A DNA stretch of 64,000 nt from Myxococcales bacterium (GCA_024640845.1 JAHEEE010000007.1:141-64140), one strand, 5' to 3'. Positions 984-19,144 are shown, numbered from the stretch's first letter. The notes: generated by a model not told the origin, from the letters alone. Numbers and translations: made by a program.

Positions 984-1061
984 AGATGCGCGCCGCAGGT
1001 TCACGCCGGGCGAGACTCGAGGGCGGATTCAAGCCTAGGGCGAACGCTTTCAACTCCCGCA

Positions 1062-1370: not shown

Positions 1371-1501
1371 GCCCCGATCAGAATGGGGAGCTTGGTGAAG
1401 CCCCGCGTGAAGGCCGAACGGCGGTGCACCGCGCCGATCGCTTCCTGCACGTCTGGATTGAAGGGATTGCAAACGGAATCGTAGTTGATTTCGGATGTCA
1501 T
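1367..1501 (-). pseudogene. 44-codon ORF, probable internally deleted cytochrome P450 remnant
   Basis: MTSEINYDSVCNPFNPDVQEAIGAVHRRSAFTRGFTKLPILIGA; ATGA overlaps with both neighbours; N-half resembles P450 N-termini (NPFxPxVQ) and C-half resembles P450 C-termini (SxFxRGFxxLP). Confidence 0.5.
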
Positions 1502-2160: not shown

Positions 2161-2317
2161 AACTCTCAACCTAGGAACGACACATGGTCACGCAAGACGC
2201 GCCCGTCAATCCAGCTCACTCACTTCCGAAATAAGCCACGCCGATTCGATCCTCGGCGAAAGTCGGTACCCAGTCATTGCTGCTCCCCTGCGAGCAGTGC
2301 TGACGGCCTGCAAGTCG

Positions 2318-3136: not shown

Positions 3137-3212
3137 GTACCGGGTCTACGCTTCGAGGCCGAGAAATGCCAGCCTGGGCGCCGCGTTGAACGCGGCCGCG
3201 GTCGGTCCTCCC

Positions 3213-4010: not shown

Positions 4011-4025
4011 GCCTGCCCACCATGG

Positions 4026-5027: not shown

Positions 5028-5128
5028 GGCAGCATGATATTAGGACTCGGCCACACCGGTCCAGCGTTTCCTTCCACCCAACGAGGGCACGAGCTGCAAG
5101 GTTCGCTGACCGTGCTATCAGCAGGCCT

Positions 5129-7087
5129 ATGCATAGCTTTTCGCTGCATTCCTCGTGGCCGACACGATGGGCCGCGGCTATCTTCTTCATCACCTCGATC
5201 GCGTCCCTCGGTTGCTCGTCGGAGAGCGGGACGACCGAATCGACCGTAGAGCTCCCGGCTTCGGTGACCCAGTGGGCGCCCGTCGGCGCTCGAACCGTGG
5301 GCGACTACGCCTACGACGTCATCCCGGAACCAAACGGCTTCCACACCATGCACGTCGGACCGAACAACACCGACAATGTGTGGATCGCGCTCGCGCCCGA
5401 GCTCGAGCTCGATTGGGTGGCTGAGCAGAGGTTCTACGTGCCCGAGGGCCCCACGTACGACAACCAGGGGAACCTTTACTTTAGTCCGCTCTTCCCTCAG
5501 GAGAACGTCTCGCTCGTCTCGCTCGACGCCGAGACGGGCGAACGAAACTGGGCGGTTGCCGGCAACGACAGCAACGCCGGGAGCGGCGCGATTCTCGTCC
5601 TGAACGATCCGGACAACCCCGGGGAGCAGATCATCTATCACGCGACCTACACAGAAGCGATGGCGCTCCAGCCAGACGAAACGATCCTCTGGCAAACCTC
5701 CACGGAGCTCTCCCTGCCGCCGGTGATCCCCGGCGAGCGATCGACGACACACTCGTTTGGTTTCAACTATCACCCACAGACCGACACACTCGTCGCACTG
5801 ATGATGGGCGGCGAAGTCCTGGCCTTTGATCGGGTTAGCGGCGATCGCGTCGCCACGAGCCAGATCCCGGGCTCACCGGCCGTCAGTGCACCGGTCGAGC
5901 TTCCGCAAAACGTGATCGACGCGAGCAATGCTCTAACGGACGCGGTGTTTGGGCAAACCCCGAGCGGCTTGAGCTTCTTCTCCGCGATCGTCGAAGTGAT
6001 CTTTGGCGGTGGCTCAGTCGTCACCAACTATTTCGCGATCGATCCCAACACAGGTCGGATCTACATCGCGGCAACAGCGGAAGACGCTGAAGACGGCACG
6101 ACCGACGGTCGATCAGAGCTCGGAGCGCTGTACTCCCTCGACCTCGTCGCCGATGGCAATGGAGGCCTCGAGTTCGAGCCACGCAATCGAATCACTTTCA
6201 TGGGTGGCACCGGTTCAACGCCTACCGTCAGCGAAGACGGCAACCGTGTATTCGTGTCTGACAACGTCGGCAACGTGATCGCCCTCGACCGCGACCTGAA
6301 CGAGCTCTGGCGTTACGAGCTCGACGCACCCGCTGCCGCGTCAATTGCGGTGTCCCCGGACAATGACGAGGTCTACGCCGTCACACGTAAAGACGTCTAC
6401 AAGCTGATCGACGAAGGCGACGCTGCCGAGCTCGGCTGGATCGCAACCCTCGACGCGTTCGCCGACGACCCAGACGTCGAAGTCGAGTTCCAGGCGCTCA
6501 CCCCGACGATCACAGCAAACGGAATCGCGATCAGCATCGGCGGTGGCGTCTTGGTGTCCGATCGGGAGGTGATGCTGAAAGTGGGCATGGGCCTCCTCGA
6601 CCGCGAGACAGGCAGACTCCGATCGTTTGCGCTCGGTCGCGAGGAGTCGATCGCCGTAACGAGCGTTGCGCCGGACGGTGGCATCTACACGGCGAGTTCG
6701 CCGGTGAGGCGCGCGGGCGGCAAGGCGCTCTACCCTTCCCTCGCCGAGGATATCATCGGTGGCATCTCGCGCTACAAGCCGGTGCGCCACCATCTGCTCG
6801 CACGTGACGCCACGTGCGCAGCGGGTGGACGGGCGCGTAACGCGGCGACCATCGCCGAGGATTCGCCCAAGTCCGCGGAGCAGGACATCCGTCAAATCCA
6901 GATGTTGATCGACCAAAGCCGCGGGGCTCTCGACCGCGCGGTCGCCGACGGCGACTTGGGTGCGAACGCGGCCGCCTTACTCGACGCGGATCTCGAATCG
7001 ATCGCGGCTGAGCTCTCGCTGTTGGGGCTCGATGCCGCAGGGAACTCATTGGTCCGCGTCTGCAATCAACTAGAGGTGCCGCAATGA
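5129..7087 (+). CDS. Lipoprotein with PQQ-like beta-propeller and helical C-terminal extension
   Basis: Lipobox SLGC; repeated blade-like segments (PTYDNQGNLYF, TGRIYI, STPTVSEDGNRVFV); start uncertain. Confidence 0.7.
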   Translation: MHSFSLHSSWPTRWAAAIFFITSIASLGCSSESGTTESTVELPASVTQWAPVGARTVGDYAYDVIPEPNGFHTMHVGPNNTDNVWIALAPELELDWVAEQRFYVPEGPTYDNQGNLYFSPLFPQENVSLVSLDAETGERNWAVAGNDSNAGSGAILVLNDPDNPGEQIIYHATYTEAMALQPDETILWQTSTELSLPPVIPGERSTTHSFGFNYHPQTDTLVALMMGGEVLAFDRVSGDRVATSQIPGSPAVSAPVELPQNVIDASNALTDAVFGQTPSGLSFFSAIVEVIFGGGSVVTNYFAIDPNTGRIYIAATAEDAEDGTTDGRSELGALYSLDLVADGNGGLEFEPRNRITFMGGTGSTPTVSEDGNRVFVSDNVGNVIALDRDLNELWRYELDAPAAASIAVSPDNDEVYAVTRKDVYKLIDEGDAAELGWIATLDAFADDPDVEVEFQALTPTITANGIAISIGGGVLVSDREVMLKVGMGLLDRETGRLRSFALGREESIAVTSVAPDGGIYTASSPVRRAGGKALYPSLAEDIIGGISRYKPVRHHLLARDATCAAGGRARNAATIAEDSPKSAEQDIRQIQMLIDQSRGALDRAVADGDLGANAAALLDADLESIAAELSLLGLDAAGNSLVRVCNQLEVPQ

Positions 7088-9297
7088 GGCGGACTTTCGA
7101 GTGGGTGCGTCTAACCCTGTTGGTTGCGCTTGCCGGATGTTCGAGTCACGCCGGCAGCACGGAGACCGTTTCGGCGGAACGAGCGCTCGTTGGGCGGCTG
7201 TTGCCTGGGTACGAGGGGCAGATCGAGGTCGAGAGCATTCCTAGCCAGGAGGGACTCGACACGTTCGAGCTCGAAACGCGCGGGCAACGGCTCGTGATTC
7301 GAGGGTCGAGCGGGGTCGCCGTGGCAAGCGGGCTCAACCACTATCTGAAGCATTTCGGAAACGGCCATTTGTCGTGGGGCGGAGATCGGGTCGACCTCGG
7401 TGAGTCCCTCCCTCCCGTCGATACCGTGGTGCGTGTGACGTCGCCTCACGAGAATCGCTACATCTACAACTTCACCGTCACGGGCTATACGAGCCCTCAT
7501 TGGGACTGGACGGACTGGGAGCGCGAGATCGACTTGATCGCAGCGCACGGCTTCAACATGGCGCTGGTCCCAATCGGCAACGAGCAGGTGATGATCCAAG
7601 CGCTCGCGGGCTACGGGTACACGTCTGAGGAGATCCGAGAATGGATTGTCGGCCCAGCATACCAGCCGTGGCAGTGGATGGGGAACATCCAAAGCCAAGG
7701 CCCTCCACTCTCTGCGGAGCTGGTCGAGCGCCGCGCGGCCTTGGGCCGAACGATCGCGGATCGGATGCGCGAGCTCGGCATCACGCCCGTCGTGCCCGGC
7801 TTCTACGGCGTCGTGCCACCAGGCTTTTCGGAGCGAAACGGCGAAGAGTACGACGTCAAGCAGACAGGCCTCTGGAACGGGAGCTTCGTACGACCCGACC
7901 TCCTCAACCCTGCCCAGGGCGAACGCTTCCAGGAAGTCGCCGACGCGTTCTACCTTGCGATCGAGGAAGTGTTCGGCGAGGTCACGCACTTTGCGGCGGA
8001 CCTTTTCCACGAAGGAACCGTCACGCCGGGCGTCGAGGTGAGCGCCGCAGCGACAAACGTTCAAGAGGCGATGCTTCGCGCCAACCCGGACGCGATCTGG
8101 GTCATTCAAGGTTGGTTCAGCAATCCGAAAGCCGAGCTTTTGGCCGGCCTCGATCCGAAGAGCGCGTTGATTCTGGACCTCTGGGGGGACGAAAATCCTC
8201 TTTACCCGACCTACACCAATCGAGGCGCGGCCCCCTTCGATGGGGTCCCGTGGGTCTGGTCGTTCCTTCAGAACTTCGGCGGCCGTACCGCGCTCCATGG
8301 AAACCTCGACACCGTGACCGGCCTTTATGGCGACGCCGGGCTGTTCGCCAATCCCTCGCGCGGCGCGCTCACAGGCCTCGGCGTGCTCATGGAGGCCACT
8401 CATCAGAACCCGGTCGTTCTCGATCTCGTCTCGGAGATGAACTGGCGGGCGCCGGCTGATGGCGCCCTCGAATTGCGGGAGTGGATTCGTGAGTACTCGG
8501 ATCGACGTTACGGTCAGGAGCTCGCAGTAACACGCGACGCTTGGGTGTCCCTTCTCGAAACCGCCTACTCGACGACGCCCGGGCTTCAATTCGGTCCGAA
8601 CGAATCGATTCTATGTGCCCGACCCGACCTCGACGCCGAGAACGTGTACGAAACCGGCCCGCCTGCGGACCCGTACTACGACATGCCTCGACTGGAAGCC
8701 GCGTTGGGCGACCTGCTCGCCGCGCGGGGCCAGCTTGGAGCCGAAGACACCTACCGCTACGACTTGGTCGACGTCGCCCGACAGGTCGTCGCCAATCGCG
8801 CCCGGCTCCTCCTGGATGATGTGCGCGCCGCGTACGGCGCAGAGGACCGCGCTCGCTTCGTCGAGCTCAGCGCTCGCTTCCTTCAGCTCATCCGCGACCA
8901 AGAGCGGCTCGTTGCGACCCGGCAAGAGCTCTTGCTGGGGACTTGGATCCAGGGGGCCCGCGCGCTGGCCGGCACGTCGACCGAAGCAGACCGCTTTGAA
9001 GCGGAAGCCCGCAGGCTGCTGACAACCTGGTCCGAGGAGGAGTCGATCTTGAGCGACTACGCCCACCGTGAATGGGCCGGCCTGCTGGGCGACTACTACC
9101 ACGGCCGCTGGCAGCTCTACTTCGACTACCTAACCGACCAGCTGGACGGCGGCAGCCCGGAACCGCCGGACTTTTTCGCGTACGAGTCCGCTTGGACCCG
9201 CGAGACCGACCCCGACGGAACGGACCACGCGTCAGCTCCGGTTGGCGATAGCATCGCGATTTCGCATGAGCTCTACGAGCGTTACGCAGCGCAATAG
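7084..9297 (+). CDS. Alpha-N-acetylglucosaminidase (GH89) lipoprotein
   Basis: Lipobox LAGC; RYIYNFTVTGYT, WEREID, PAYQPWQWMGN, FHE, WVIQGW, NFGGRT, GVLME, DYAHREWAGLLGDYYHGRW are NAGLU-family motifs; ATGA overlap with upstream gene. Confidence 0.92.
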   Translation: MRRTFEWVRLTLLVALAGCSSHAGSTETVSAERALVGRLLPGYEGQIEVESIPSQEGLDTFELETRGQRLVIRGSSGVAVASGLNHYLKHFGNGHLSWGGDRVDLGESLPPVDTVVRVTSPHENRYIYNFTVTGYTSPHWDWTDWEREIDLIAAHGFNMALVPIGNEQVMIQALAGYGYTSEEIREWIVGPAYQPWQWMGNIQSQGPPLSAELVERRAALGRTIADRMRELGITPVVPGFYGVVPPGFSERNGEEYDVKQTGLWNGSFVRPDLLNPAQGERFQEVADAFYLAIEEVFGEVTHFAADLFHEGTVTPGVEVSAAATNVQEAMLRANPDAIWVIQGWFSNPKAELLAGLDPKSALILDLWGDENPLYPTYTNRGAAPFDGVPWVWSFLQNFGGRTALHGNLDTVTGLYGDAGLFANPSRGALTGLGVLMEATHQNPVVLDLVSEMNWRAPADGALELREWIREYSDRRYGQELAVTRDAWVSLLETAYSTTPGLQFGPNESILCARPDLDAENVYETGPPADPYYDMPRLEAALGDLLAARGQLGAEDTYRYDLVDVARQVVANRARLLLDDVRAAYGAEDRARFVELSARFLQLIRDQERLVATRQELLLGTWIQGARALAGTSTEADRFEAEARRLLTTWSEEESILSDYAHREWAGLLGDYYHGRWQLYFDYLTDQLDGGSPEPPDFFAYESAWTRETDPDGTDHASAPVGDSIAISHELYERYAAQ

Positions 9298-9354
9298 GCG
9301 CGCATCGCGCGGCAGCCCATTGGCGATTCGCATGAGCTGTGTAATGAATGTGCC

Positions 9355-9957
9355 ATGCACCGATCCCTCGTGGTCACCGGGCTCGCGATCCTGCTAGGGC
9401 TCGGGCTTAGCGCCTGCAGCCAAGACGACGTGCGTCCCGCACCTGGCGCTGGCGGCACGCGTCCACCACCTCCCGGTACGGGCGGCACGGGAGGCTCGGC
9501 CGGGACGGGGGGGACCGGCGGGACCGGCGGGACCGCAGGGGGAGGAGGGACCGCGGGCACTGCCGGAAGCGCAGGAGCCGGCGGCGTGGGAGGCAGCCCG
9601 TTGCTAGGGGAGTGTAGCAACCCGGACGATTTCGCTCAGCTCGCGAGCCTGCAGCCGAGCAACCCGCGAACTTTGGCAGCGTCGATCGCCGTCACTCAGT
9701 GCTTCAATGATCCTCGGAAGGACTCTTTCATCGAGTGCGTCTCGGCGGGGATGCAAACCGCTCTGACGAGCCTCTCGGCGACGTGTGCGAACTGCTATGG
9801 CGAGTTGGCCTGGTGCAGTATTCCCTTCAACTGCAACGTGGCGTGTCAGAGCGACTCGTGTTTGCTCGGCTGTCTCAATTGCACCAACTACGACGCCTGC
9901 CTCGAGGCGCTCAACCTCTGCACGGGCCGCACCCCCCCGGAGTGCAGCGAATCCTGA
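9355..9957 (+). CDS. Cys-rich lipoprotein with Gly/Thr linker
   Basis: Lipobox LSAC; GGTGG repeats; 14 Cys in the C-terminal domain. Confidence 0.75.
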   Translation: MHRSLVVTGLAILLGLGLSACSQDDVRPAPGAGGTRPPPPGTGGTGGSAGTGGTGGTGGTAGGGGTAGTAGSAGAGGVGGSPLLGECSNPDDFAQLASLQPSNPRTLAASIAVTQCFNDPRKDSFIECVSAGMQTALTSLSATCANCYGELAWCSIPFNCNVACQSDSCLLGCLNCTNYDACLEALNLCTGRTPPECSES

Positions 9958-9973
9958 GGAGTAAGAGGACAAG

Positions 9974-10918
9974 CTACTTCTGCACCCCGAGAACGCCCGC
10001 ACCTATCCGATACATTTGGGTGGTAAAGAGACTGGTCACGTAGAGGGAGCACGGGTCGAAATCACCCTGCCCGAAGGCAATGCTTGCGGGGCCAACACCA
10101 CGCAAGTCGTCCGCGAGCGTCGTAGAGCTGCCGTCCGCATCGACCTTGGCGATTTGGCCGGCAGTATTGAGGGCCACATAGACGTTGCCCTCGCTGTCGA
10201 TCGCCACGCCGTCCGGTGCGGACGTCTCGTAGGCGACCCACTTCTCGGCAGCGCCAGCCGTCACTCCGGAAACCGGAATACGCCAAAGGCCCGCCTCTTG
10301 GAACGTCGCGGCCACGTAGAGCGTGCTGCCGTCGAGCGAAAACACCATCCCGTTCGGCGTCGGCACTTCGTCGGACCAGACGGTGACGTTGCCGTCCGCA
10401 TCGACCTCGAGGATCGAGCCCACGTCCGGTCGATCGTCCGAGACGAGAGTCGTGCCCCAGGGCGTGTTGACCACGAAGTTCGGCTCGCCGAGATCCATCG
10501 CGACCTCGACGTTGCTGCCGTCCGCAGGATCGATGAGCAAGAGGTTGCCGGTTCGAATACCCGCCGCCAGGATCCCTGCCGGCAAGCTTTCTAGGCCGAG
10601 CAGCGACTCGGCCTCTGCGACGCTTTCGTTCGAACCGTCCGAGGAGATCTCGAGGAGCTGGTCGGGACCGTCGTTGTCCTGTGCTGACACGTAGAGCGTG
10701 CCGTTGGCATCGAAAACGAGGCCCTCCGTCCTGGTCGGCGTCGGATCGCCGAAGGCCTGCACCTCTCCAACTGCGATGTCAGTCGCACAGGCACGCGCGT
10801 CGCCGCCAGCGCCCCCACTGCCGCCGGCTCCGGCGGTGCCGCCCGCTCCCGAATCGCTCGAGCTACAACCAGCCACCGCTGCCAAGACAGCGAGGAAAAG
10901 CATCGCACCTTTGTTCAT
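9974..10918 (-). CDS. SMP-30/gluconolactonase family lipoprotein
   Basis: Lipobox VAGC; TEGLVFD, PNGMVFSLDG, PDGVAIDSEGNVYVA. Confidence 0.88.
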   Translation of the reverse strand: MNKGAMLFLAVLAAVAGCSSSDSGAGGTAGAGGSGGAGGDARACATDIAVGEVQAFGDPTPTRTEGLVFDANGTLYVSAQDNDGPDQLLEISSDGSNESVAEAESLLGLESLPAGILAAGIRTGNLLLIDPADGSNVEVAMDLGEPNFVVNTPWGTTLVSDDRPDVGSILEVDADGNVTVWSDEVPTPNGMVFSLDGSTLYVAATFQEAGLWRIPVSGVTAGAAEKWVAYETSAPDGVAIDSEGNVYVALNTAGQIAKVDADGSSTTLADDLRGVGPASIAFGQGDFDPCSLYVTSLFTTQMYRIGAGVLGVQK

Positions 10919-10963
10919 CGGACCACCTCCACGCGCGGAGCCTAGCGATCTAGGTCCGTTCTG

Positions 10964-11587
10964 TCACGTGGCTAGAAGCATGCGCAACTGCGTCTTCCAA
11001 CGCTTGAGCAAGTGCGCGTAGTGAGCCTCGTTCTGGCGAAAAATGCGCTCCATGGCGAGGCCGCGCATGAAGTAGAGGGTCATCTCTAGTGAGCCTTTCG
11101 TCTCGCGTCCCTGTCGACCCGTCAGCTCCTTGAACGCCGCGTAGAGACGACCGCCGAGGCTTCGTTCAAACCCTTCGAGCTTCTCGAGAAGCTCGGGATC
11201 GGTCCGCGCAGCGACCATTAGCTCGATGACAGCCCAGTAGATGGGATCCGAAAACATCATCCACAACATGTCGACCATCGCATCGACGGGGTCGTCTCCC
11301 TCGTCGAGCCGCGCCTGGAGCGCCACCTCGAACTCCTTCGATCGCTCGTCGGCCAAATGCTCGATCGCGGCGACGAGGAGATCCGCCTTGCTCGGGAAGT
11401 GATGAAGCTGCGTACCGCGTGAAAGACCGGTCCGCTCTCCAACCTCGACCGTGGTGGTCCGCGAGTAGCCGATCTCGATCAGGCTATCGATCGTGGCATC
11501 GAGCAGCTTGCCCCGGGTGATCCGACGCCGCTCCGCTTGCGGCACACGTTCCCGCTTCACCGGGGCGCCGGTTCCCGTCTTCTTCAC
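10964..11587 (-). CDS. TetR/AcrR family transcriptional regulator
   Basis: HTH GYSRTTTVEVGERTGLSRGTQLHHFPSKADL; GTG start at 11587 chosen. Confidence 0.92.
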   Translation of the reverse strand: MKKTGTGAPVKRERVPQAERRRITRGKLLDATIDSLIEIGYSRTTTVEVGERTGLSRGTQLHHFPSKADLLVAAIEHLADERSKEFEVALQARLDEGDDPVDAMVDMLWMMFSDPIYWAVIELMVAARTDPELLEKLEGFERSLGGRLYAAFKELTGRQGRETKGSLEMTLYFMRGLAMERIFRQNEAHYAHLLKRWKTQLRMLLAT

Positions 11588-11597
11588 TCGCTGTCCA

Positions 11598-12776
11598 TCA
11601 GTCGCGGCGGTACATCGTGACGACCGCGGCGCCACCCAGGCCGAGGTTGTGCTGTAGTGCGATGCGGGCGCCGTCGACTTGGCGGCCCTCGGCTTGCCCC
11701 CGAAGTTGCCAGACGAGCTCGGCGCATTGTGCGAGGCCGGTCGCCCCGAGCGGGTGTCCCTTCGAGAGCAGACCGCCGCTCGGGTTGGTTACGAATTTTC
11801 CGCCGTACGTGTTGTCGCCTTCGTCAATGAACTTCTCTGCCTCGCCCTCGTTGCAGAGGCCGAGCGCTTCGTAGGTGAGCACCTCATTGGTCGTGAAGCA
11901 GTCATGCAGCTCGACGACATCAACGTCTTCAGGACCGATGCCGGCTTCTTCGTAGACTGCTTGTGCGGCGTTCTTGGCCATGTCGAAGCCCACCATCTTG
12001 ATCATCGAATCGCCGAAGCTCGACTCGTAGTCGGTGCGCATCGTCTGGCCCGCTATATAGACCGGATTGCCGATGCCCTTCTTCTTGGCGAAGTCGTCCG
12101 AGCACACGATGGCCGCCGCCGCACCGCAGGTAGGAGGGCAGCACTGGTAGCGGGTGAGCGGATCGAAGACCTCGGGTGAGGCCAGGATCTCGTCGACCGT
12201 GAGAGGGTCGCGGAAAAGCGCATAAGGGTTCTTGGCCGCATGCCTGCGCGCCTTGGCGTTCACCTTGGCAAAGGTCTCGCGCTTGGTGCCGTACTTCCAT
12301 CGGTACTCGCGACCGGCGCCGCCAAACATCTGCGCTGCGGGAGGCGCGGAGGTAAAGCCCTGGCTCTCATTCATGACGTTGACGTGAAGGTTCAACGGAT
12401 TGGGCCGATCGTCCCACGCCGAGGCAAGCGCACCTTTCTTCATCTGCTCGAAACCTACGGCGAGCGCACACTCGACGATGCCGCCTTCGACCATTTGCTT
12501 TGCAAGCATGAGCGCGCTCGACCCGGTAGAGCAGTTGTTGTTTACGTTGTAGACCGGAATCCCAGTGAGTCCGACGTCGTAGACGGCGCGCTGCCCGCAC
12601 GTGCTATCGCCGAAGACGTAGCCCGCGACAGCCTGTTCGACCTCCGCATACTCGACCCCGCCGTCCGCGAGGGCAGTCTTGATCGCCTTGGCGGCCATCA
12701 CGTTGTAGTCCTCGCTTTGGCCTGGCTTGGCGAAGGGCACCATGCCGACTCCGATTACATTTACCTTGCGTCCCAT
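11598..12776 (-). CDS. SCPx-type (lipid-transfer protein) thiolase
   Basis: NVNNNCSTG (catalytic Cys), ELHDCF, SKGHPLGATG. Confidence 0.93.
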   Translation of the reverse strand: MGRKVNVIGVGMVPFAKPGQSEDYNVMAAKAIKTALADGGVEYAEVEQAVAGYVFGDSTCGQRAVYDVGLTGIPVYNVNNNCSTGSSALMLAKQMVEGGIVECALAVGFEQMKKGALASAWDDRPNPLNLHVNVMNESQGFTSAPPAAQMFGGAGREYRWKYGTKRETFAKVNAKARRHAAKNPYALFRDPLTVDEILASPEVFDPLTRYQCCPPTCGAAAAIVCSDDFAKKKGIGNPVYIAGQTMRTDYESSFGDSMIKMVGFDMAKNAAQAVYEEAGIGPEDVDVVELHDCFTTNEVLTYEALGLCNEGEAEKFIDEGDNTYGGKFVTNPSGGLLSKGHPLGATGLAQCAELVWQLRGQAEGRQVDGARIALQHNLGLGGAAVVTMYRRD

Positions 12777-12806
12777 CGTTGCTCCTTGTCGAGTCCGTGC
12801 GCGCGC

Positions 12807-15407
12807 CTAGATCAGGCCCTTGAGAAAGTTGAGTCGACGTGCGGGCTCGACTTCGCCGTCTATGCGGAGCTTGCCCTTCTGGAAAAGCGTTTGTGCTGTG
12901 GCCTCGCCGCTTCCGAGTGCAGCGAGATCGGCGTCGGCGATCGTGATGGTCGTCGTTGCGCCATCGGTCTCTCCGCTCTTCAGCGCGGGCGGTCGGTGCT
13001 CGAGGTCGACGACCCACTTGGAGTCGGGGTCCCGTACGTAGAACTGCAGGACCGCGCCCACCTCATCAGCGAGGCGCGGCTGCTCCTCTAGGCGCTTGGC
13101 GAGCGCCTCGAACAGCGTCGGCGCGAGCGGCTCATAGGCTGCCGGAGCGCTAGGTGGAGGAGGTGCCAAGGCACCACCACGCACCCTCGCTTCGGCCTTC
13201 TCGAGCACGAGCTCGAACGGCATCTCAGCGAGCAGCTCTAGCTTGTTCACGGCCATCATGTCGCCTGCCACCTTGACCTTGCCAGTGGTAAAGAGCTTCA
13301 TCGCGTCTGCCTCCCCCTTTTGAAGTGCGATGTAGTTCGCCTCGGAGAGCTTGAGCGTGACATCGGGCTTGGCGATTTCACCGGGCCCGGCGGAGCCTCC
13401 CTTGAGGTCGATCGTCCAGACGCTGTCGGGGTCGCTGAGCTGGAGCTGGAATACCGTTTGACCCTTTTCGGCGATTCCTGGGTTGTCTTTCAAGTGCTGA
13501 TCGATCGCCGCGATGATGTCGGCTGCCATCGCTTCGACAGTTGCCTCCTCGGCTGCCTCGGTTGCCAGTGCCTCGGACTTCTTCTCCTTGGGTTTTGGGA
13601 GCTTCTCGAAGAGCTCGATGGCCGCATTCGAGATGACCACCGCGTCCCGCTCCTTGACCTTGCACTGAAACACGATCCGCTGGTCGGACTCTTTCCACAT
13701 CTCGGTGACGAGGGTGTCGCCGGGGTAGACGTTGTCGGCGAAGCGCACCCTGATGCTCTTGAAGAAATCGGGATTGCCTTCGGGGGCGTACTTCTCGAGC
13801 ACGCGGCGGCCGGCGTAGCCGAACGTGCAGAGGCCATGCAGAATCGGGCGCTCGAACCCAAACGCCCGCGCCATGTCGGGGTCGGCGTGAAGCGGGTTCC
13901 AGTCTCCGCTCAACCGATAGAGCAGTGCCTGGTTCGCAGGGATCGCGTCCTCGACGACCACGTCAGGCGCACGGTCTGGCGGCAGGTTGACCTCTGCGCT
14001 CGGGCCGCGCTCGCCGCCCCAGCCGCCAGCGCCGCGAACGAACATCGTCATCTCGCTCTTGATCAGGAGGTCGCCATCCTCGTCGTACGAGTCGCCGCCG
14101 ATCACGACGAGCGCGCCCTTTCCTTTGTCCCAGATCTCTTTGACCACGCTCTTGGTGGTCAACGTCGCCTTGAGCGGCAGCGGGCGGACGACCTCGACGT
14201 ACTGCTCGCCGTGCAACACGCGGTCGAGCCCGTAGTTGAGCCCGGGAGCCGTGACTCCCTCTTTGGCGAGCCCCAGAAAGGCGTTGACGCCGGGCATGAC
14301 AGCGTAGGTCGCAAGTGCCTTCATCCCGCCACTCGCGCCTTCGTAGACCAGTTGAAGATCTCCTGTTTCGTTCGGGTCGCTAGCGGCGCCCACTCCGAGG
14401 GCGTAGAGCGCCAGGTCGCTCTCGTCGTAGCTCGACACGACGTCCGGGTACTTGGCGCCGAGCGCGGCATCGACATCGATGAGCTCGTTGCCCCCCTTAC
14501 TCGGACCCGCCTCGACGTTCCGAATGACCGGGCCGAGCGACTCCATGAGCGTGCTGATGTGCTCGGTCTCGCTGAAGTCGTTGATCTGAGACCAGCTCTC
14601 CCGCAGCGATTCCGGCGTCACCTCACGACCGAGGCGAAAGACTTTGCCCTTGGTGCGCTCCCAGCGAAGGCTCGAGTAGAGGCCTCCACCGACTTCGTAG
14701 AGCCCGCCGGTCGCGTCGCTCTCTTCGCTGCAGAGATACGCAACGAGCGGGGATACATAGTCGGGCTTCAGCGCATCGAATACCGCTGGCGGAAGTAGCC
14801 CCTCGGTGAGTCGCGAAGCGGCGACTGGCGCGATAGTGTTCACGAGGATGTTCTTGCGCTGACCCTCGAGCGAGAGCGTGTTGGCGAATCCGACCAAGCT
14901 GAGCTTTGCGGAGCTGTAGTTGGTCTGGCCGAAATTGCCGTAAATTCCTGCGGCCGATGTCGTGAAGATGATTCGGCCATAGCCCTGCTCGTTCATGATC
15001 GGCCAGGCGGCTTTCGTCACTTTGTATGCGCCGTAGCTGTGTACACGAAAGATGATGTTCCAATCCGCATCGCTCATGTTCTTGAACGACTTGTCGCGGA
15101 GGATGCCTGCGTTGTTGACCACGATATCGACGCGTTCCCAGGCATCCATCGCCGTCTTCACGATGGCGTCTCCGTCCTCGACGGAGTCGTAGTTGGCGAC
15201 CGCCTCGCCACCGGCCTGCTTGATCTCCTCGACGACTCTATCGGCGCTCTCCGAGGACTTCCCGTCGCCGGCCTTCGAGCCACCGAGATCGTTGACGACC
15301 ACCTTGGCGCCGCGCGCTGCCAGAAGGAGCGCATGCGAGCGGCCAAGCCCCTGCCCTGCCCCCGTGACAATCGCCACACGCCCATCAAACCGCAGGTCTT
15401 TGCCCAT
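12807..15407 (-). CDS. Peroxisomal multifunctional enzyme type 2-like fusion: SDR + enoyl-CoA hydratase 2 (MaoC) + two SCP2 domains
   Basis: TGAGQGLG, NNAGILRD, YSSAK; YRLSGDWNPLHADP, LHGLCTFG; two SCP2-like segments (WTIDLK...PDVTL...LFTTGKVKVAGD; WVVDLE...LFQKGKLRIDGE); start at MGKDLRF with RBS GAGGG. Confidence 0.92.
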   Translation of the reverse strand: MGKDLRFDGRVAIVTGAGQGLGRSHALLLAARGAKVVVNDLGGSKAGDGKSSESADRVVEEIKQAGGEAVANYDSVEDGDAIVKTAMDAWERVDIVVNNAGILRDKSFKNMSDADWNIIFRVHSYGAYKVTKAAWPIMNEQGYGRIIFTTSAAGIYGNFGQTNYSSAKLSLVGFANTLSLEGQRKNILVNTIAPVAASRLTEGLLPPAVFDALKPDYVSPLVAYLCSEESDATGGLYEVGGGLYSSLRWERTKGKVFRLGREVTPESLRESWSQINDFSETEHISTLMESLGPVIRNVEAGPSKGGNELIDVDAALGAKYPDVVSSYDESDLALYALGVGAASDPNETGDLQLVYEGASGGMKALATYAVMPGVNAFLGLAKEGVTAPGLNYGLDRVLHGEQYVEVVRPLPLKATLTTKSVVKEIWDKGKGALVVIGGDSYDEDGDLLIKSEMTMFVRGAGGWGGERGPSAEVNLPPDRAPDVVVEDAIPANQALLYRLSGDWNPLHADPDMARAFGFERPILHGLCTFGYAGRRVLEKYAPEGNPDFFKSIRVRFADNVYPGDTLVTEMWKESDQRIVFQCKVKERDAVVISNAAIELFEKLPKPKEKKSEALATEAAEEATVEAMAADIIAAIDQHLKDNPGIAEKGQTVFQLQLSDPDSVWTIDLKGGSAGPGEIAKPDVTLKLSEANYIALQKGEADAMKLFTTGKVKVAGDMMAVNKLELLAEMPFELVLEKAEARVRGGALAPPPPSAPAAYEPLAPTLFEALAKRLEEQPRLADEVGAVLQFYVRDPDSKWVVDLEHRPPALKSGETDGATTTITIADADLAALGSGEATAQTLFQKGKLRIDGEVEPARRLNFLKGLI

Positions 15408-15422: not shown

Positions 15423-15444
15423 AAACAATCAGGTTTGACGGTTT
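15423..15444. promoter_or_regulatory. Imperfect palindrome, candidate TetR operator
   Basis: AAACaaTCAggttTGAcgGTTT (14 of 22 positions symmetric), 16-37 bp upstream of the MFE-2-like start. Confidence 0.4.
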
Positions 15445-15496
15445 ATAGGAACCTGCGGAGATGTCAATGCAGATCGTGGCTGCTGCGTCGTCGGCG

Positions 15497-15970
15497 CTAT
15501 TTCTTCCAGCGGCTCTCGGTGAGGGTCATGCCCTCGATCGACTTGCGGGGAAGCATCTGCTCGTAGGTGCGGATGTAGCCGGTCTTGGCGATGCGCCAAA
15601 CGCCATCGTCGCCCTTCCGGTACTCGTCTTCATAGAAGGCGGCGCCGTGGATCATCATGTCGAAGCCTGTCTCGATCACGCTGTCCTGCAGGCACCAGCG
15701 CCCGGTGGCCGTGCGCTCATCGACGAGATCGATTTCGGGTTGGCTGACCGCGTGGCAGGAATGAAAGGTGTCGGCGCCCATCGCCCCTTCGAGGAACTGC
15801 ATGATCGCGTCCCGATTGTCGAAGGAGAACTTCCCGCCGCTGTAGGCCGCCCTGGCGTCCTCCGTGAAGCACTCGCGAAGCTCGTCCCACTGCTTGGTGT
15901 CGAGGCACCGCTGGTACTTGTACTTGAGGCGCTTGATCGCCTCGAGATCCTGCCATTGGATGTCGGCCAT
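15497..15970 (-). CDS. NTF2/SnoaL-like protein (BaiE/LinA-type fold)
   Basis: AIKRLKYKYQRCLDTKQWDEL, HSCH...PEID, ATGRW, YEDEY...WRI. Confidence 0.85.
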   Translation of the reverse strand: MADIQWQDLEAIKRLKYKYQRCLDTKQWDELRECFTEDARAAYSGGKFSFDNRDAIMQFLEGAMGADTFHSCHAVSQPEIDLVDERTATGRWCLQDSVIETGFDMMIHGAAFYEDEYRKGDDGVWRIAKTGYIRTYEQMLPRKSIEGMTLTESRWKK

Positions 15971-15979: not shown

Positions 15980-17089
15980 CTACTCGGAAAAGCGCGCCAC
16001 GTGGTGCTCCGCGTCGCCGAAGAGCGCGTTTAGCGCGTACATGCGCTTGAAATACAGCCCTATATCGTGCTCGTCGGTAACGCCGATGCCGCCGTGGAGC
16101 TGCAGCGACTGCTGCGCCACCCAGATGCCGCCGGTCGCGAGCTGGTACTTGGCGGCAGAGATGTCGGCGCGCCGGGTGCTGGTATCGTCTTCGTCGGCAC
16201 GTACCATGGATGCCATCGAGATCGAGCGCAGAAGCTCCGTCTCCGCGTACATGTCCACTGCGCGGTGCTGAAGGGCTTGAAAGGACCCGATCTTGACCCC
16301 GAACTGCTCACGTGTGCCGAGGTAGTCCACCGTCATGTGGAGCATCTTGGATGCAAGCCCGACGCTTTCGGCGACCGCCGCCGCCGCGGCATAGTCCATG
16401 ACCCGGTCGAGGACCCGGGCCCCGGCGCCCTCTTCACCGAGCCTCGCGCCTCGTTCAACCGCAACTTCGTCGAGCTCGATGAACGCGGCTTTGTGCCCGT
16501 CGATGGTCTTCGCGACCGTCACCGAAACCCCCTCCGCATCACGGGGCACGACGAACAGCGTCACTCCAGCCGGCGCTCTCGCCGACACGATGAGATGATC
16601 GGCGTTGTGGCCGTTCAGCACCCACACCTTCTGCCCCGAGATCTCGTAGCCACCGCCCTTCGTCGTGGCGGTGGTTTCGATCGCGCTCACGTCGAAGCGG
16701 CTTCGTGCCTCGGCGTAGGCGAGCGCGAGGGTGGTGTCGCCCTCGATCATCGGGGTGAGGTACGCCGCGTGCTGTTCCGCGGTTCCGGCGCGCAACAAGG
16801 CCATGCCGCCGAGCACGACCGACGCGAGGTAAGGCTCGGGCACCAGATTCGTCGCAAGGTTTTCGAGAACGATGGCGCACTCGACGAAGCTGCCGCCGAA
16901 ACCGCCGACCGGCTCGGGAAATGCCACACCAAGCCACCCGAGCTCACCCATCTTCTGCCAGACGGCCGGGTCGTACCCGATGTCGTCATCTCGAAGCTGT
17001 CGAAAGCGCTCAACGGGCGACTCGTTTTTCGCGAAGTCGGCCACCGTCTTCGCAAGCATTTGCTGATCTTGATCGAGCTCAAAGTCCAT
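15980..17089 (-). CDS. Acyl-CoA dehydrogenase, small/beta-type subunit (PimD/FadE27-like)
   Basis: ACAD fold; REQFGVKIGSFQALQHR, QLHGGIG, C-terminal LFGDAEHH. Confidence 0.88.
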   Translation of the reverse strand: MDFELDQDQQMLAKTVADFAKNESPVERFRQLRDDDIGYDPAVWQKMGELGWLGVAFPEPVGGFGGSFVECAIVLENLATNLVPEPYLASVVLGGMALLRAGTAEQHAAYLTPMIEGDTTLALAYAEARSRFDVSAIETTATTKGGGYEISGQKVWVLNGHNADHLIVSARAPAGVTLFVVPRDAEGVSVTVAKTIDGHKAAFIELDEVAVERGARLGEEGAGARVLDRVMDYAAAAAVAESVGLASKMLHMTVDYLGTREQFGVKIGSFQALQHRAVDMYAETELLRSISMASMVRADEDDTSTRRADISAAKYQLATGGIWVAQQSLQLHGGIGVTDEHDIGLYFKRMYALNALFGDAEHHVARFSE

Positions 17090-17114: not shown

Positions 17115-18293
17115 TCAGCTGCTCGGCAGTTGCAGGATCATCTTCGCGATGACGTTGCGTTGAATTTCGTTGGAGCCGCCGTAGATCGTTGCGGCTCGCT
17201 CGTAGCAGAAGTAGGGCCCAATCGATTCTTCGACCGGCGTGCACACGCCTTCGTTGTACCAGGTGAGCGAGCTCTCCCCCATGATCTCCATCGCGAGCTC
17301 GGTCATCTCTTGAACGAGCTTCGTGCCGACGAGCTTCAGGATCGAGGACTCGGGACCTGGCATCTTGCCCTTTTGCTGGTCGGCAAGCGCACGGTAGCTG
17401 ACCATGAGGTGCGCGCGGAAGCGCATCTCGAGGCGAGCGATCTTTGCCCTCCAAATGGGGTGCTCCAGCATCGGGCGCCCGTCGACCGTCTTGGTCGCTG
17501 CGATGCGCTTGATCTTCTGAAGCACATTGCGACAGGGGCCGACCATGGCAAGAAGCGTTCGCTCGTGGCCAAGCAGCGCTTTCGCCATCGTCCAACCTTG
17601 ATTGACTTCGCCGATGACGTTCTCTTTTGGCACTTTCACGTTGTCGAAGAACGTGTCGCAGAACGCCGGCGTGTGCCCGAGCGTCAGCATCGGCTTCACC
17701 TCGACGCCAGGGGTCTTGAGATCGATGAGCAAAAACGTGATGCCGGCTTGCTTCTTCGCGTTCGGATCCGTCCGCACGAGGCAGAAGATCCAATCTGCGT
17801 ACTGCGCGTAGGTCGTCCACGTCTTCTGCCCGTTCACGATGAAGTGGTCACCGGCGTCCTCGGCCGTCGTGCGAAGCGACGCCAAGTCGCTCCCGGAGCC
17901 AGGCTCGGAGTAACCCTGGCACCAGAACTCTTCCGCGCTCAGGATCTTCGGGAGGAATCGCTTCTTCTGTGCGTCCGTTCCAAAGCTGATGATCAGCGGG
18001 CCCACCATCGAAAGCCCAAACACGGAGAGCTGTGGGGCGCCCGCGGACTCCATCTCTTCGTTGAAGATGAAGCGCCGAGCTGCATCCCAGCCGGTCCCGC
18101 CTACTTCCTTCGGCCAGTGGGGGGCGACCCAACCTTTTTCGTAGAGGATCCGATGCCAAGTTGCCGAATCCTCGGGCGTGAAGCGGCCAGAGCCCGCAGC
18201 ACGCTCGCGCATGTCAGCTGGCATGGCGTCCTGAATCCATGCGCGCACCTCGAGCCGAAACGCCTCTTCTTCTTCCGTGAAGGTGAGATTCAT
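17115..18293 (-). CDS. Acyl-CoA dehydrogenase, large/alpha-type subunit (PimC/FadE26-like)
   Basis: WCQGYSEPGSGSDLASL, NGQKTWTT, LLGHER, TIYGGSNEIQRN; start trimmed to MNLTF. Confidence 0.9.
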   Translation of the reverse strand: MNLTFTEEEEAFRLEVRAWIQDAMPADMRERAAGSGRFTPEDSATWHRILYEKGWVAPHWPKEVGGTGWDAARRFIFNEEMESAGAPQLSVFGLSMVGPLIISFGTDAQKKRFLPKILSAEEFWCQGYSEPGSGSDLASLRTTAEDAGDHFIVNGQKTWTTYAQYADWIFCLVRTDPNAKKQAGITFLLIDLKTPGVEVKPMLTLGHTPAFCDTFFDNVKVPKENVIGEVNQGWTMAKALLGHERTLLAMVGPCRNVLQKIKRIAATKTVDGRPMLEHPIWRAKIARLEMRFRAHLMVSYRALADQQKGKMPGPESSILKLVGTKLVQEMTELAMEIMGESSLTWYNEGVCTPVEESIGPYFCYERAATIYGGSNEIQRNVIAKMILQLPSS

Positions 18294-18382
18294 GCCGATA
18301 TCCCTGACACAATCCGAGGCCGAATACCAACCTGTACGAACGCAGGGAAACCCTGTAGGAAGCTCGGCAGCGGAAGCCCATC

Positions 18383-19144
18383 GTGACGATCGATCTCGCA
18401 TTTCTCCTCTTCGCTCTGGTCGTCGTCGCCGCCTATGCGGTTCAGACGGCGATCGGGTTCGGGAGCACCCTGATTTGTGTGACGTTCGGCGCTCAGCTGA
18501 TCGGGCTGCAGGAGGCGATCCATCTCGTCGTGCCGATCTCGTTTCTCCAAACGGGGTACATCGTCATCCGGCACCGGGACGGCATCGAGTGGAGACTTCT
18601 GCTGAGCCGTGTGCTGCCCCTGATGGGCCTGGGAATGGGGTTCGCGTTCCTCCTGCTCACGCGTGTCGGCGGTCCCTGGCTCGGCCTCGCGTTCGGCCTG
18701 ATGGTGCTGGCATTGTCGGCCCGCGACCTTTACGAGCTGCGCGCGGCGAGCCCCGTCGTGAACAAGCCGATCCAGCCTCTTGCTTCGGTCGCCGCCCTCT
18801 TCGGGGCCGGTATCGTCCACGGCATCTACGCGTCCGGCGGCCCCTTGCTCGTGTACGCAGTCGGCCGCGAGGGACTCTCCAAGAAGGCGTTCCGAAGCAC
18901 GCTCAGCATGGTCTGGATCCTGCTCAACTCGATCCTCGTGACCCGATTCGCGGTATCGGGAGACTACGACCGATCGGTCATCGTCGGCGTTTTGCTGCTG
19001 GTTCCCGCGGTACCGCTCGGGGTGCTGGTTGGAGAATGGGTGCACGATAAGGCCGACGAACAAGGCTTCAAGGTGGCAGTCTTGGTGCTTCTCATCGCAG
19101 CTGCAATCTCGATCATCGTGCGATATAGTGCGCAGCTCGCCTGA
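18383..19144 (+). CDS. Sulfite exporter TauE/SafE family protein
   Basis: About 8 hydrophobic segments; GFG..., GIYASGGP. Confidence 0.82.
   Translation: MTIDLAFLLFALVVVAAYAVQTAIGFGSTLICVTFGAQLIGLQEAIHLVVPISFLQTGYIVIRHRDGIEWRLLLSRVLPLMGLGMGFAFLLLTRVGGPWLGLAFGLMVLALSARDLYELRAASPVVNKPIQPLASVAALFGAGIVHGIYASGGPLLVYAVGREGLSKKAFRSTLSMVWILLNSILVTRFAVSGDYDRSVIVGVLLLVPAVPLGVLVGEWVHDKADEQGFKVAVLVLLIAAAISIIVRYSAQLA

What the first reader, a model, noticed from the sequence alone, without database searches (positions are those of the whole stretch)
11598..15407. Peroxisome-like MFE-2 plus SCPx module, with both SCP2 domains on the MFE
Seen: SDR-hydratase2-SCP2-SCP2 fusion immediately followed by an NNNC/HDCF/GHP thiolase lacking SCP2. 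Known: animal peroxisomes use HSD17B4 (SDR-hydratase2-SCP2) and SCPx (thiolase-SCP2) for branched-chain fatty acids and bile-acid intermediates. Inferred: this operon holds the same total domain inventory, with the second SCP2 moved onto the upstream gene. That bears on the bacterial origin of the peroxisomal pathway and implies (R)-specific beta-oxidation of bulky or branched lipids. MFE-2-like genes are already annotated in myxobacteria; the double-SCP2 form and the linkage are the parts to test.
Basis: partly seen in the sequence, partly recalled or inferred. Interest (0 to 1): 0.62.

Follow-up and report, generated by a model that had tools for sequence, protein, structure and literature searches.

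The report
Myxobacterial MFE-2/thiolase operon with SCP2 array
An uncultured myxobacterium carries a repressor-controlled gene pair closely resembling the animal peroxisomal fat-burning enzymes MFE-2 and SCPx; the pair is real and common in its relatives, but the extra lipid-carrier domain is a local duplication and was not borrowed from SCPx.

Summary
Gene 15407-12807(-) encodes an 866-aa protein: SDR, hydratase-2 and two SCP2 domains. Gene 12776-11598(-) encodes an SCP2-type ("lipid-transfer protein") thiolase without SCP2.

The pair is ordinary within its group. It is adjacent in essentially every Polyangia locus examined, and 22 of 55 genomes of the window's genus have it. It has its own conserved promoter with a 22-bp palindrome and a TetR gene.

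The domain rule is (I)n-T: one to three "internal" SCP2 copies followed by one divergent "terminal" copy. The three-SCP2 form is commoner than the two-SCP2 form among species representatives.

The idea that the second SCP2 is the SCPx domain moved upstream is not supported:
- I and T are sister clades.
- Both human SCP2 domains resemble I more than T.
- Tandem SCP2 arrays also occur on chelicerate MFE-2 and on bivalve and protist SCPx.

The SDR-hydratase core is sister to opisthokont MFE-2 (support 100/98). The thiolase is not close to SCPx; it groups with actinobacterial and proteobacterial Ltp thiolases.

Most likely function: (R)-specific beta-oxidation of bulky or methyl-branched acyl-CoAs. 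Verdict: a bacterial variant of a known kind, of moderate interest.

The parts
12807..15407 (-). MFE-2-like multifunctional enzyme, 866 aa: SDR, hydratase-2, SCP2(I), SCP2(T). It has no PTS1; the C-terminus is ...KGLI.
   Evidence: Pfam. PDB: Drosophila MFE-2 3oml, 551 bits; rat and human HSD17B4 SDR, about 373 bits; human hydratase-2 1s9c, 247 bits. Motifs.
14508..15407 (-). SDR, (3R)-hydroxyacyl-CoA dehydrogenase domain, residues 1-300. Motifs TGAGQGLG and YSSAK.
   Evidence: BLAST identity to the human HSD17B4 SDR domain is 58%.
13605..14477 (-). Hydratase-2 double hot-dog domain, residues 311-601. Hydratase-2 motif YRLSGDWNPLHADPDMA and HGEQY.
   Evidence: Identity to human hydratase-2 is 45%.
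13215..13556 (-). SCP2 domain of the internal type (I), residues 618-731.
   Evidence: It lies in the MyxI clade, SH-aLRT 96.
12810..13154 (-). SCP2 domain of the terminal type (T), residues 752-866. It is about 31% identical to the I domain.
   Evidence: It lies in the MyxT clade, SH-aLRT 99, which is sister to MyxI.
11598..12776 (-). SCP2-type (Ltp / 'lipid-transfer protein') thiolase, 392 aa, without an SCP2 domain. Motifs NNNCSTGS, HDCF and GHP.
10964..11635 (-). TetR-family regulator. It overlaps the thiolase 3' end if it starts at 11635; an alternative GTG start lies at about 11587.
   Evidence: Pfam TetR_N and TetR_C_31. It is conserved downstream in close relatives and upstream in Kofleriaceae-like loci. 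N-terminal sequence.
15423..15444 (-). Probable TetR operator: the 22-bp imperfect palindrome AAACCGTCAAACCTGATTGTTT. The family consensus is AAACAGTCAG-CT-CTGATTGTTT. It overlaps the -10 region.
   Evidence: It is conserved upstream of MFE-2 in 16 relatives whatever gene lies upstream. It occurs once in the 4.1-Mb genome.
15442..15467 (-). Sigma-70-like promoter of the MFE-2 gene: TTGACA at 15467-15462 and TATAAA at 15447-15442.
   Evidence: Read directly from the sequence. Conserved in relatives. Coordinates.
15497..15970 (-). SnoaL_4 (NTF2-like) protein, 157 aa.
   Evidence: Pfam PF13577, 1e-29. It is present only in the closest relatives L001, L052 and L062.
15980..17089 (-). Small subunit of a heteromeric acyl-CoA dehydrogenase (PimD / ChsE5-like), 369 aa.
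   Evidence: Pfam ACAD domains. TIGR03203 pimD_small, 324 bits, below cut-off. PDB 6wy8_A and 4x28_D.
17115..18401 (-). Large subunit of a heteromeric acyl-CoA dehydrogenase (PimC / ChsE4-like), 428 aa as an ORF. The true start is probably about 35 codons downstream.
   Evidence: Pfam. TIGR03204 pimC_large, 424 bits, below cut-off. Best PDB match 4x28_A, annotated only 'acyl-CoA dehydrogenase' (I recall it as the M. tuberculosis FadE26-FadE27 heterotetramer), 217 bits.

Best explanation
The core is a three-gene, self-regulated unit: MFE-2-like enzyme, thiolase and TetR repressor. It supplies steps 2-4 of an (R)-specific beta-oxidation cycle.

Proposed steps:
1. The hydratase-2 domain adds water to a 2-enoyl-CoA, giving the (3R)-hydroxyacyl-CoA.
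2. The N-terminal SDR domain oxidises this to the 3-ketoacyl-CoA.
3. The Ltp/SCP2-type thiolase cleaves off acetyl-CoA, or propionyl-CoA from 2-methyl-branched substrates.

The C-terminal SCP2 array is one internal-type plus one terminal-type domain here, and up to three internal copies in relatives. It most likely holds the hydrophobic tail of poorly soluble substrates and presents them to the catalytic domains and the thiolase.

The TetR protein probably binds the 22-bp palindrome over the -10 region and is released by an acyl-CoA.

In this lineage only, a heteromeric PimCD/ChsE4-5-type acyl-CoA dehydrogenase and a SnoaL-like protein lie just upstream. They supply step 1. Their type hints at bulky substrates such as isoprenoid acids, sterol side chains or very long chains.

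Shown here: domains, motifs, folds, conserved adjacency, and the conserved promoter and palindrome. Inferred: stereochemistry, substrate class, the role of SCP2, and the regulator-operator pairing.
For: Domains and catalytic motifs of all three activities are intact.

Similarity to characterised enzymes is very high:
- MFE-2 SDR to rat HSD17B4, 374 bits; full core to Drosophila MFE-2, 551 bits.
- Thiolase to zebrafish SCP2-thiolase, 498 bits.

Genomic context:
- The thiolase lies 20-500 nt downstream of MFE-2 in essentially all of about 60 Polyangia loci and in six further Myxococcota families.
- TetR is linked in about 28 loci.
- The promoter and palindrome are conserved in 16 relatives and the palindrome is unique in the genome.

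SCP2 domains: two SCP2 folds at pLDDT 88, with sterol carrier proteins as top structural matches.

Upstream ACADs: their best matches are the two chains of 4x28, and 6wy8. I recall 4x28 as the M. tuberculosis cholesterol side-chain ACAD ChsE4-ChsE5.

Parallel operons elsewhere:
- Unfused sets ltp-MaoC-MaoC-SDR(-ACAD)-TetR in Rhodococcus and Tsukamurella.
- ltp+SDR+TetR inside an acyclic-terpene (Atu) cluster in Sulfitobacter.

The genome also carries 7 KshA_C-type Rieske oxygenases.
Against: - No biochemical data exist for any bacterial member, and none was found in the searchable literature.
- The ACAD pair and the SnoaL gene accompany the core only in the closest relatives, so they say little about the family's general substrate.
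- No KstR-type box is present in the window.
- KshA-like genes occur in all 21 genomes sampled from the genus, whereas MFE-2 is found in only 22 of the 55 genomes held for that genus. There is therefore no sign of co-distribution with steroid-ring genes.
- The window's palindrome departs from the family consensus at 4 of 22 positions.
Confidence: 0.7

Rival explanations
1. This is a general auxiliary beta-oxidation module for ordinary straight-chain, long or very-long-chain fatty acids, for example from prey or detritus. It has no specialisation for branched or steroidal substrates, and the SCP2 domains simply solubilise long acyl chains.
For: - The core pair occurs without the special ACADs in most relatives.
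- It is patchy and accessory within the genus, in 22 of 55 genomes.
- From prior knowledge, eukaryotic MFE-2 also handles straight very-long-chain substrates.
- There is no steroid operator here.
Against: - From prior knowledge, SCP2-type thiolases are the class that accepts 2-methyl-branched 3-ketoacyl-CoAs.
- A related ltp+SDR+TetR set sits in an Atu terpene cluster.
- The ACADs next to this copy have as their best solved match 4x28, which I recall as a steroid side-chain ACAD.
Confidence: 0.22
2. The terminal SCP2 is the counterpart of the SCPx SCP2 domain, relocated from the thiolase gene to the MFE-2 gene, so the operon preserves the ancestral peroxisomal domain inventory as one unit.
For: - In single-sequence phmmer searches the window's SCP2-2 scores higher on rabbit and human SCP2 (46.7 and 45 bits) than on the HSD17B4 SCP2 (31.3 bits). 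SCP2-1 shows the reverse (38.6 against 33.5 bits).
- The AU test does not reject a T + SCPx-SCP2 clade (p = 0.15).
Against: - Family profiles reverse the single-sequence result. Both human domains fit the I-type better: 87.7 and 86.9 bits against 61.8 and 66.6 bits.
- The best tree puts T sister to I inside Myxococcota, SH-aLRT 94.
- The number of SCP2 domains varies from 2 to 4.
- The MFE-2 and thiolase trees disagree. Eukaryotes group with fused Myxococcota for MFE-2 but away from Polyangia for the thiolase. The pair was therefore not inherited as a unit.
Confidence: 0.07
3. The module runs in the synthetic direction. It would supply (R)-3-hydroxyacyl-CoA, for example for polyhydroxyalkanoate or a secondary metabolite, or it would elongate acyl chains through thiolase condensation.
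For: From prior knowledge, hydratase-2/MaoC enzymes (PhaJ) feed PHA synthesis, thiolases are reversible, and myxobacteria are rich in lipid-derived secondary metabolism.
Against: - No PHA synthase, PKS or reductase gene is linked.
- The neighbours are catabolic ACADs.
- From prior knowledge, a TetR gene with acyl-CoA catabolic genes is the usual catabolic arrangement. Homologous operons also contain CoA ligases and ACADs.
Confidence: 0.04

Closest known systems
Eukaryotic peroxisomal multifunctional enzyme type 2 (MFE-2; HSD17B4, D-bifunctional protein, Drosophila CG3415, fungal Fox2)
   Same: - Same domain order: SDR, hydratase-2, SCP2.
- Same catalytic motifs.
- 58% identity in the SDR domain and 45% in the hydratase domain to human.
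- Sister clade to the opisthokont enzymes, support 100/98.
   Different: - No PTS1.
- Two SCP2 domains of two distinct subtypes, in the pattern (I)n-T.
- Encoded in a bacterial operon with its thiolase and a TetR repressor.
- No biochemical data.
SCPx / SCP2-thiolase type-1 (zebrafish 6hsj) and bacterial 'lipid-transfer protein' (Ltp) thiolases, NCBIfam NF006102
   Same: - Full-length match to NF006102 at 685 bits.
- 53-63% identity to eukaryotic SCPx thiolase domains.
- NNNCSTGS, HDCF and GHP motifs are conserved.
   Different: - No C-terminal SCP2 domain.
- It falls in the subclade with Rhodococcus, Tsukamurella, Cupriavidus, Variovorax, Sulfitobacter and Sporosarcina. It does not fall in the subclade that holds eukaryotic SCPx, other Myxococcota and Dietzia.
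Unfused bacterial operons: ltp-MaoC(N)-MaoC(C)-SDR(-ACAD)-TetR of Rhodococcus and Tsukamurella; TetR-SDR-hydratase-thiolase of other Myxococcota; and, from prior knowledge, the mycobacterial Hsd4A/Hsd4B/ChsE4-ChsE5 cholesterol side-chain enzymes
   Same: - The same set of activities, usually with a TetR gene.
- The window's ACAD pair has 4x28 as its best solved match; I recall that entry as ChsE4-ChsE5.
   Different: - Here the SDR and hydratase are fused and carry SCP2 domains.
- The SDRs next to the actinobacterial and proteobacterial ltp genes are only 34-38% identical. Their hydratases are not detectably of the MFE-2 type at E <= 1e-20.
Eukaryotic enzymes with tandem SCP2 arrays: chelicerate MFE-2 (Ixodes 1143 aa, Limulus 1140 aa; four SCP2 domains), bivalve SCPx (Mercenaria 671 aa; two SCP2 domains), protist SCPx (two or three SCP2 domains)
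   Same: Several SCP2 domains in tandem at the C-terminus of the same enzyme families.
   Different: - These arrays arose independently by lineage-specific duplication.
- They end in a PTS1.
- In Myxococcota the last domain is a distinct, conserved subtype.

Membership tests
MFE-2 (peroxisomal multifunctional enzyme type 2 / HSD17B4 family) | N-terminal SDR domain with TGxxxGxG and the catalytic YxxxK | tested here: met
   TGAGQGLG at residue 15 and YSSAK at 164. 373 bits to the rat and human HSD17B4 SDR domains.
MFE-2 (peroxisomal multifunctional enzyme type 2 / HSD17B4 family) | Hydratase-2 double hot-dog domain with the motif [YF]-x(1,2)-[LVIG]-[STGC]-G-D-x-N-P-[LIV]-H-x(5)-[AS] | tested here: met
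   YRLSGDWNPLHADPDMA at residue 497 and HGEQY at 399. PF22622 and PF01575 hits. 247 bits to human 1s9c.
MFE-2 (peroxisomal multifunctional enzyme type 2 / HSD17B4 family) | Domain order SDR, hydratase-2, SCP2-like in one polypeptide | tested here: met
   The order is the same, but with two SCP2 domains.
MFE-2 (peroxisomal multifunctional enzyme type 2 / HSD17B4 family) | Groups with bona fide MFE-2 in a phylogeny, apart from other SDR/MaoC pairs | tested here: met
   Fused Myxococcota + opisthokont MFE-2 form a clade at 100/98. It excludes split Myxococcota genes and four proteobacterial and actinobacterial pairs. Sampling outside Myxococcota was thin.
MFE-2 (peroxisomal multifunctional enzyme type 2 / HSD17B4 family) | Peroxisomal targeting signal PTS1 (-SKL-like C-terminus) | tested here: not met
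   The C-terminus is ...FLKGLI, as expected for a bacterium.
MFE-2 (peroxisomal multifunctional enzyme type 2 / HSD17B4 family) | (3R)-specific hydratase and dehydrogenase activities | not testable with these tools
   Needs an enzyme assay.
SCP2-thiolase / Ltp thiolase (NF006102) | Score above the curated family cut-off over the full length | tested here: met
   684.7 bits against a cut-off of 436, residues 1-391.
SCP2-thiolase / Ltp thiolase (NF006102) | Nucleophilic Cys in NNNCSTGS, the HDCF motif and the GHP motif | tested here: met
   Residues 79, 291 and 340. Aligned with zebrafish 6hsj.
SCPx (animal thiolase-SCP2 fusion) | C-terminal SCP2 domain on the thiolase polypeptide | tested here: not met
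   No SCP2 hit in the 392-aa protein.
SCPx (animal thiolase-SCP2 fusion) | Falls in the same thiolase subclade as eukaryotic SCPx | tested here: not met
   It groups with the Actinobacteria/Proteobacteria Ltp subclade. The AU test rejects Polyangia + eukaryotes at p = 1e-4.
SCP2 sterol-carrier fold (PF02036) | Two independent alpha/beta SCP2 folds in the C-terminal 250 residues | tested here: met
   Pfam finds two stretches. AF2 pLDDT is 88 with a repeated H-H-E-E-E-E-H-H-E-H pattern. Foldseek TM-scores normalised to the target are 0.74-0.80 to 1ikt, 1c44 and 8af3.
Heteromeric alpha2beta2 acyl-CoA dehydrogenases (PimCD; ChsE4-ChsE5/FadE26-27) | Adjacent large and small subunit genes that each match the corresponding subunit | tested here: inconclusive
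   The best NCBIfam hits are pimC_large (424 bits) and pimD_small (324 bits), both below their cut-offs. The best PDB hits are 4x28 chains A and D and 6wy8 chains B and A. Catalytic residues and heteromer formation were not examined.

The most novel reading that the evidence does not exclude
The whole SDR-hydratase-2-SCP2 fusion may have been exchanged once between a myxobacterial lineage and the eukaryotic stem. The fused Myxococcota enzymes would then be the closest living prokaryotic relatives of peroxisomal MFE-2. That would add (R)-specific peroxisomal beta-oxidation to the proposed myxobacterial contributions to eukaryotes: mitochondrial beta-oxidation (PMC3131387) and plasmalogen synthesis (bioRxiv 10.1101/2025.10.10.681575). 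It would revise the alpha-proteobacterial origin assigned to Fox2 in 2006 (PMC1472686). The SCPx thiolase would have come from a different donor. The present trees show reciprocal monophyly only, so the direction could equally be eukaryote to bacterium.
Probability: 0.3. Interest if true: 0.7.

Novelty: new variant of a known kind. Interest (0 to 1): 0.42.

Why it matters
Bacterial counterparts of the peroxisomal D-specific beta-oxidation enzymes have not been studied biochemically. This family offers three things:

1. **A soluble prokaryotic model of MFE-2.** Its natural series of one to three near-identical SCP2 copies plus a fixed terminal subtype lends itself to testing what SCP2 domains do for a beta-oxidation enzyme.
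2. **A defined regulator-operator pair.** It could be used to find the inducing lipid.
3. **A concrete phylogenetic result.** The MFE-2 core is sister to opisthokont MFE-2, while the thiolase is not sister to SCPx. This makes the origin of this peroxisomal pathway testable gene by gene.

It also corrects an attractive but unsupported 'domain moved between genes' story.

Tried and rejected
- **Single-sequence searches misled.** phmmer of each SCP2 domain against the PDB suggested SCP2-1 matches the HSD17B4 type and SCP2-2 the SCPx type. Family HMMs and a 87-domain tree did not bear this out.
- **The one representative-library search was mostly wasted.** It used the I+T profile and returned mainly fragments of the same family. 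It did reveal eukaryotic multi-SCP2 proteins, which were followed up.
- **A mislabelled outgroup.** I first treated genomes reached through L074 as Proteobacteria. True outgroups came from the plasmid collection.
- **No KstR-type operator.** The pattern TnnAACnnGTTnnA has no match in the window.
- **Patchiness was first overstated.** The phylum-wide draw showed only 2 of 15 genus members with the gene. The full genus search gives 22 of 55.
- **No co-distribution with KshA-like oxygenases.** They are in all 21 genomes sampled.
- **Neighbour clustering was uninformative.** Beyond the MFE-2/thiolase pair, the only recurrent neighbour family with a copy in the window was the TetR family (28 loci); every other recurrent cluster was either restricted to a subset of relatives or an overlapping opposite-strand or alternate-frame ORF, as is common in high-GC DNA.
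- **Tool limits.** 'of' accepts only G handles. Control genomes of family searches get no handles.

Full report
**What is there**

On the minus strand the window carries, in order:
- a large ACAD subunit (18401-17115)
- a small ACAD subunit (17089-15980)
- a 90-nt spacer
- the MFE-2-like gene (15407-12807)
- a 30-nt gap
- a thiolase (12776-11598)
- a TetR gene (11635 or about 11587 to 10964)

**The MFE-2-like protein (866 aa)**

Pfam finds adh_short (10-195), MFE-2_hydrat-2_N (326-459), MaoC (476-593) and two SCP2 stretches. My own HMM delimits the SCP2 domains at 618-731 and 752-866.

AlphaFold2 on a 61-sequence alignment gives mean pLDDT 88 and two repeats of the SCP2 secondary-structure pattern. 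Foldseek's top hits are human SCP2, the human MFE-2 SCP-2L domain and rabbit SCP2, with TM-scores normalised to the target of 0.74-0.80.

The catalytic signatures are intact: TGAGQGLG, YSSAK, HGEQY and the hydratase-2 motif YRLSGDWNPLHADPDMA.

**The thiolase**

It matches NCBIfam NF006102 ('lipid-transfer protein') at 685 bits against a cut-off of 436. It matches zebrafish SCP2-thiolase type-1 at 498 bits, with NNNCSTGS, HDCF and GHP conserved. It has no SCP2 domain.

**How common it is**

A scan of species-representative genomes returned 80 loci, and 77 of them carry Polyangia or unresolved myxobacterial/deltaproteobacterial labels. They cover Sandaracinaceae, Kofleriaceae, Polyangiaceae, Labilithrix and cultured Polyangium species. 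The other three are L080 (a Planctomycetaceae MAG with only a 34%-identical SDR match), L074 (labelled Gammaproteobacteria at NCBI but in the window's phylum by GTDB) and L078, which carries split SDR and hydratase genes.

- The thiolase lies immediately downstream of MFE-2 in essentially every locus with enough DNA.
- TetR lies downstream in close relatives and upstream in a Kofleriaceae-like set.
- The ACAD pair and the SnoaL gene are upstream only in the nearest relatives.
- Six further Myxococcota families have the same arrangement.
- In the window's own genus 22 of 55 genomes carry the gene, 14 of 39 among high-quality genomes. It is an accessory trait.
- About 25 of 301 genomes sampled across the phylum have the fused form.
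- Another set of Myxococcota has separate SDR and hydratase genes next to a thiolase, often with TetR.

**The SCP2 array**

Of 62 complete proteins from species representatives, 44 have three SCP2 domains, 17 have two, and one, an 804-aa ORF from L062, has none. Among the 120 nearest protein clusters the patterns are I-T (102), I-I-T (16) and I-I-I-T (2).

The last domain always belongs to one clade, T (SH-aLRT 99). The preceding domains belong to another clade, I (96).

I copies within one protein are 44-99% identical. The median is 62%, and 9 of 44 pairs are at least 90% identical. This points to repeated duplication or gene conversion. I and T are about 31% identical.

So 'double SCP2' is one state of a variable (I)n-T array.

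**Is the second SCP2 the SCPx domain?**

Single-sequence searches hinted so. Four results argue against it:

1. Family HMMs score both the human HSD17B4 SCP2 and the human SCPx SCP2 higher on I (87.7 and 86.9 bits) than on T (61.8 and 66.6 bits).
2. In a tree with 44 eukaryotic SCP2 domains, I and T are sisters (94).
3. In that tree most eukaryotic tandem copies (bivalve, and the protist MMETSP1 and protJGI1) group by lineage; the four chelicerate positions each group across species, which points to a duplication in the chelicerate ancestor.
4. Eukaryotes have their own arrays: chelicerate MFE-2 with four SCP2 domains, bivalve SCPx with two, and protist SCPx with two or three.

The AU test cannot exclude T + SCPx-SCP2 (p = 0.15). 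The reading is therefore unsupported rather than disproved.

**Relation to eukaryotes**

*MFE-2 core.* I used concatenated SDR + hydratase, 598 columns, with IQ-TREE (LG+C20). Opisthokont MFE-2 (100/97) and fused Myxococcota MFE-2 (100/98) form a clade at 100/98. Split Myxococcota genes lie outside it. The root was placed on Cupriavidus, Sphingomonas, Polaromonas and Nonomuraea pairs. Gabaldón et al. 2006 called Fox2 alpha-proteobacterial and SCP2 unresolved (PMC1472686). Schlüter et al. 2011 do not list either protein (PMC3131387).

*Thiolase.* The window and Polyangia group with Ltp thiolases of Rhodococcus, Tsukamurella, Cupriavidus, Variovorax, Massilia, Sulfitobacter and Sporosarcina, which are 61-68% identical to the window. 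Eukaryotic SCPx thiolases (93/97) group with the other Myxococcota set and with a Dietzia plasmid gene. An AU test rejects Polyangia + eukaryotes at p = 1e-4.

The two genes therefore have different histories. The operon as a unit does not mirror the eukaryotic pair.

*Caveats.* Eukaryote sampling for MFE-2 covers opisthokonts only. Bacteria outside Myxococcota come only from plasmid records. The thiolase root rests on long outgroup branches.

**Regulation**

Sixteen relatives share the following sequence upstream of MFE-2, whatever gene precedes it: TTGACA-N15-ATAAAC overlapping the palindrome AAACAGTCAG-CT-CTGATTGTTT.

The window's copy, AAACCGTCAAACCTGATTGTTT at 15444-15423, differs from the consensus at four positions. 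It is the only match to the degenerate pattern in the 4.1-Mb genome.

This marks MFE-2, thiolase and TetR as a transcription unit of their own, probably autoregulated. No KstR box is present.

**Function**

The simplest reading is steps 2-4 of an (R)-specific beta-oxidation cycle, with SCP2 domains that handle poorly soluble substrates.

Hints towards bulky or methyl-branched substrates:
- the thiolase class
- the ACAD pair, whose best solved matches are 4x28 (recalled as M. tuberculosis ChsE4-ChsE5) and T. curvata 6wy8
- a related ltp+SDR+TetR set inside an Atu terpene cluster
- seven KshA_C-type oxygenases in the genome

None of these is specific to the core pair. KshA-like genes do not co-vary with it.

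**Literature and limits**

No paper on bacterial MFE-2 with SCP2 arrays was found.

Noticed in passing
window 15497-15970 (-): A 157-aa SnoaL_4/NTF2-like gene sits between the ACAD pair and MFE-2. It is present only in the closest relatives (L001, L052, L062). Its role is unknown; an isomerase or dehydratase acting on the same substrate is possible.
   Followed up: partly
L151 2047-8365; L152 1448-7626: Other Myxococcota carry a permuted hydratase-SDR-SCP2 protein of about 730 aa. Next to it is a protein of about 915 aa with an unassigned 500-aa N-terminus followed by SDR and SCP2, and then a distant thiolase.
   Followed up: no
P0183 (528 aa, Logan assembly): A protein with SDR followed directly by I-type and T-type SCP2 domains, with no hydratase domain.
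   Followed up: no
P0401, P0406, P0413 (chelicerate MFE-2); P0292, P0297 (bivalve SCPx); P0280, P0239 (protist SCPx): Eukaryotic enzymes with tandem SCP2 arrays and a PTS1: four SCP2 domains on chelicerate MFE-2, two on bivalve SCPx, and two or three on protist SCPx. Most arose by lineage-specific duplication.
   Followed up: partly
G000 and 20 other genomes of the same genus: Every genome of the genus holds 5-13 KshA_C-domain Rieske oxygenase genes (7 in this genome). This is an unusual expansion for a myxobacterial group.
   Followed up: partly
L165 (Sulfitobacter alexandrii plasmid) 1-13179: An Ltp thiolase, an SDR and a TetR gene lie inside an acyclic-terpene-utilisation (AtuA / biotin carboxylase) cluster. 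This links the thiolase class to methyl-branched isoprenoid breakdown.
   Followed up: no
L174 (Dietzia kunjamensis plasmid pDK313-98) 4995-6194: This Ltp thiolase is 60.8% identical to zebrafish SCPx thiolase. It falls within or beside the eukaryotic clade with weak support. It lies next to an IS21 element.
   Followed up: partly
L074 / G301: A MAG labelled 'uncultured Gammaproteobacteria' at NCBI is placed by the genome tool in the same phylum as the window. 'Phylum of G301' returned the same contigs as the Myxococcota sample.
   Followed up: yes
window 7084-9297 (+): A full-length NAGLU-family alpha-N-acetylglucosaminidase with all three Pfam domains. Another eukaryote-like (lysosomal-type) enzyme in the same window.
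   Followed up: no
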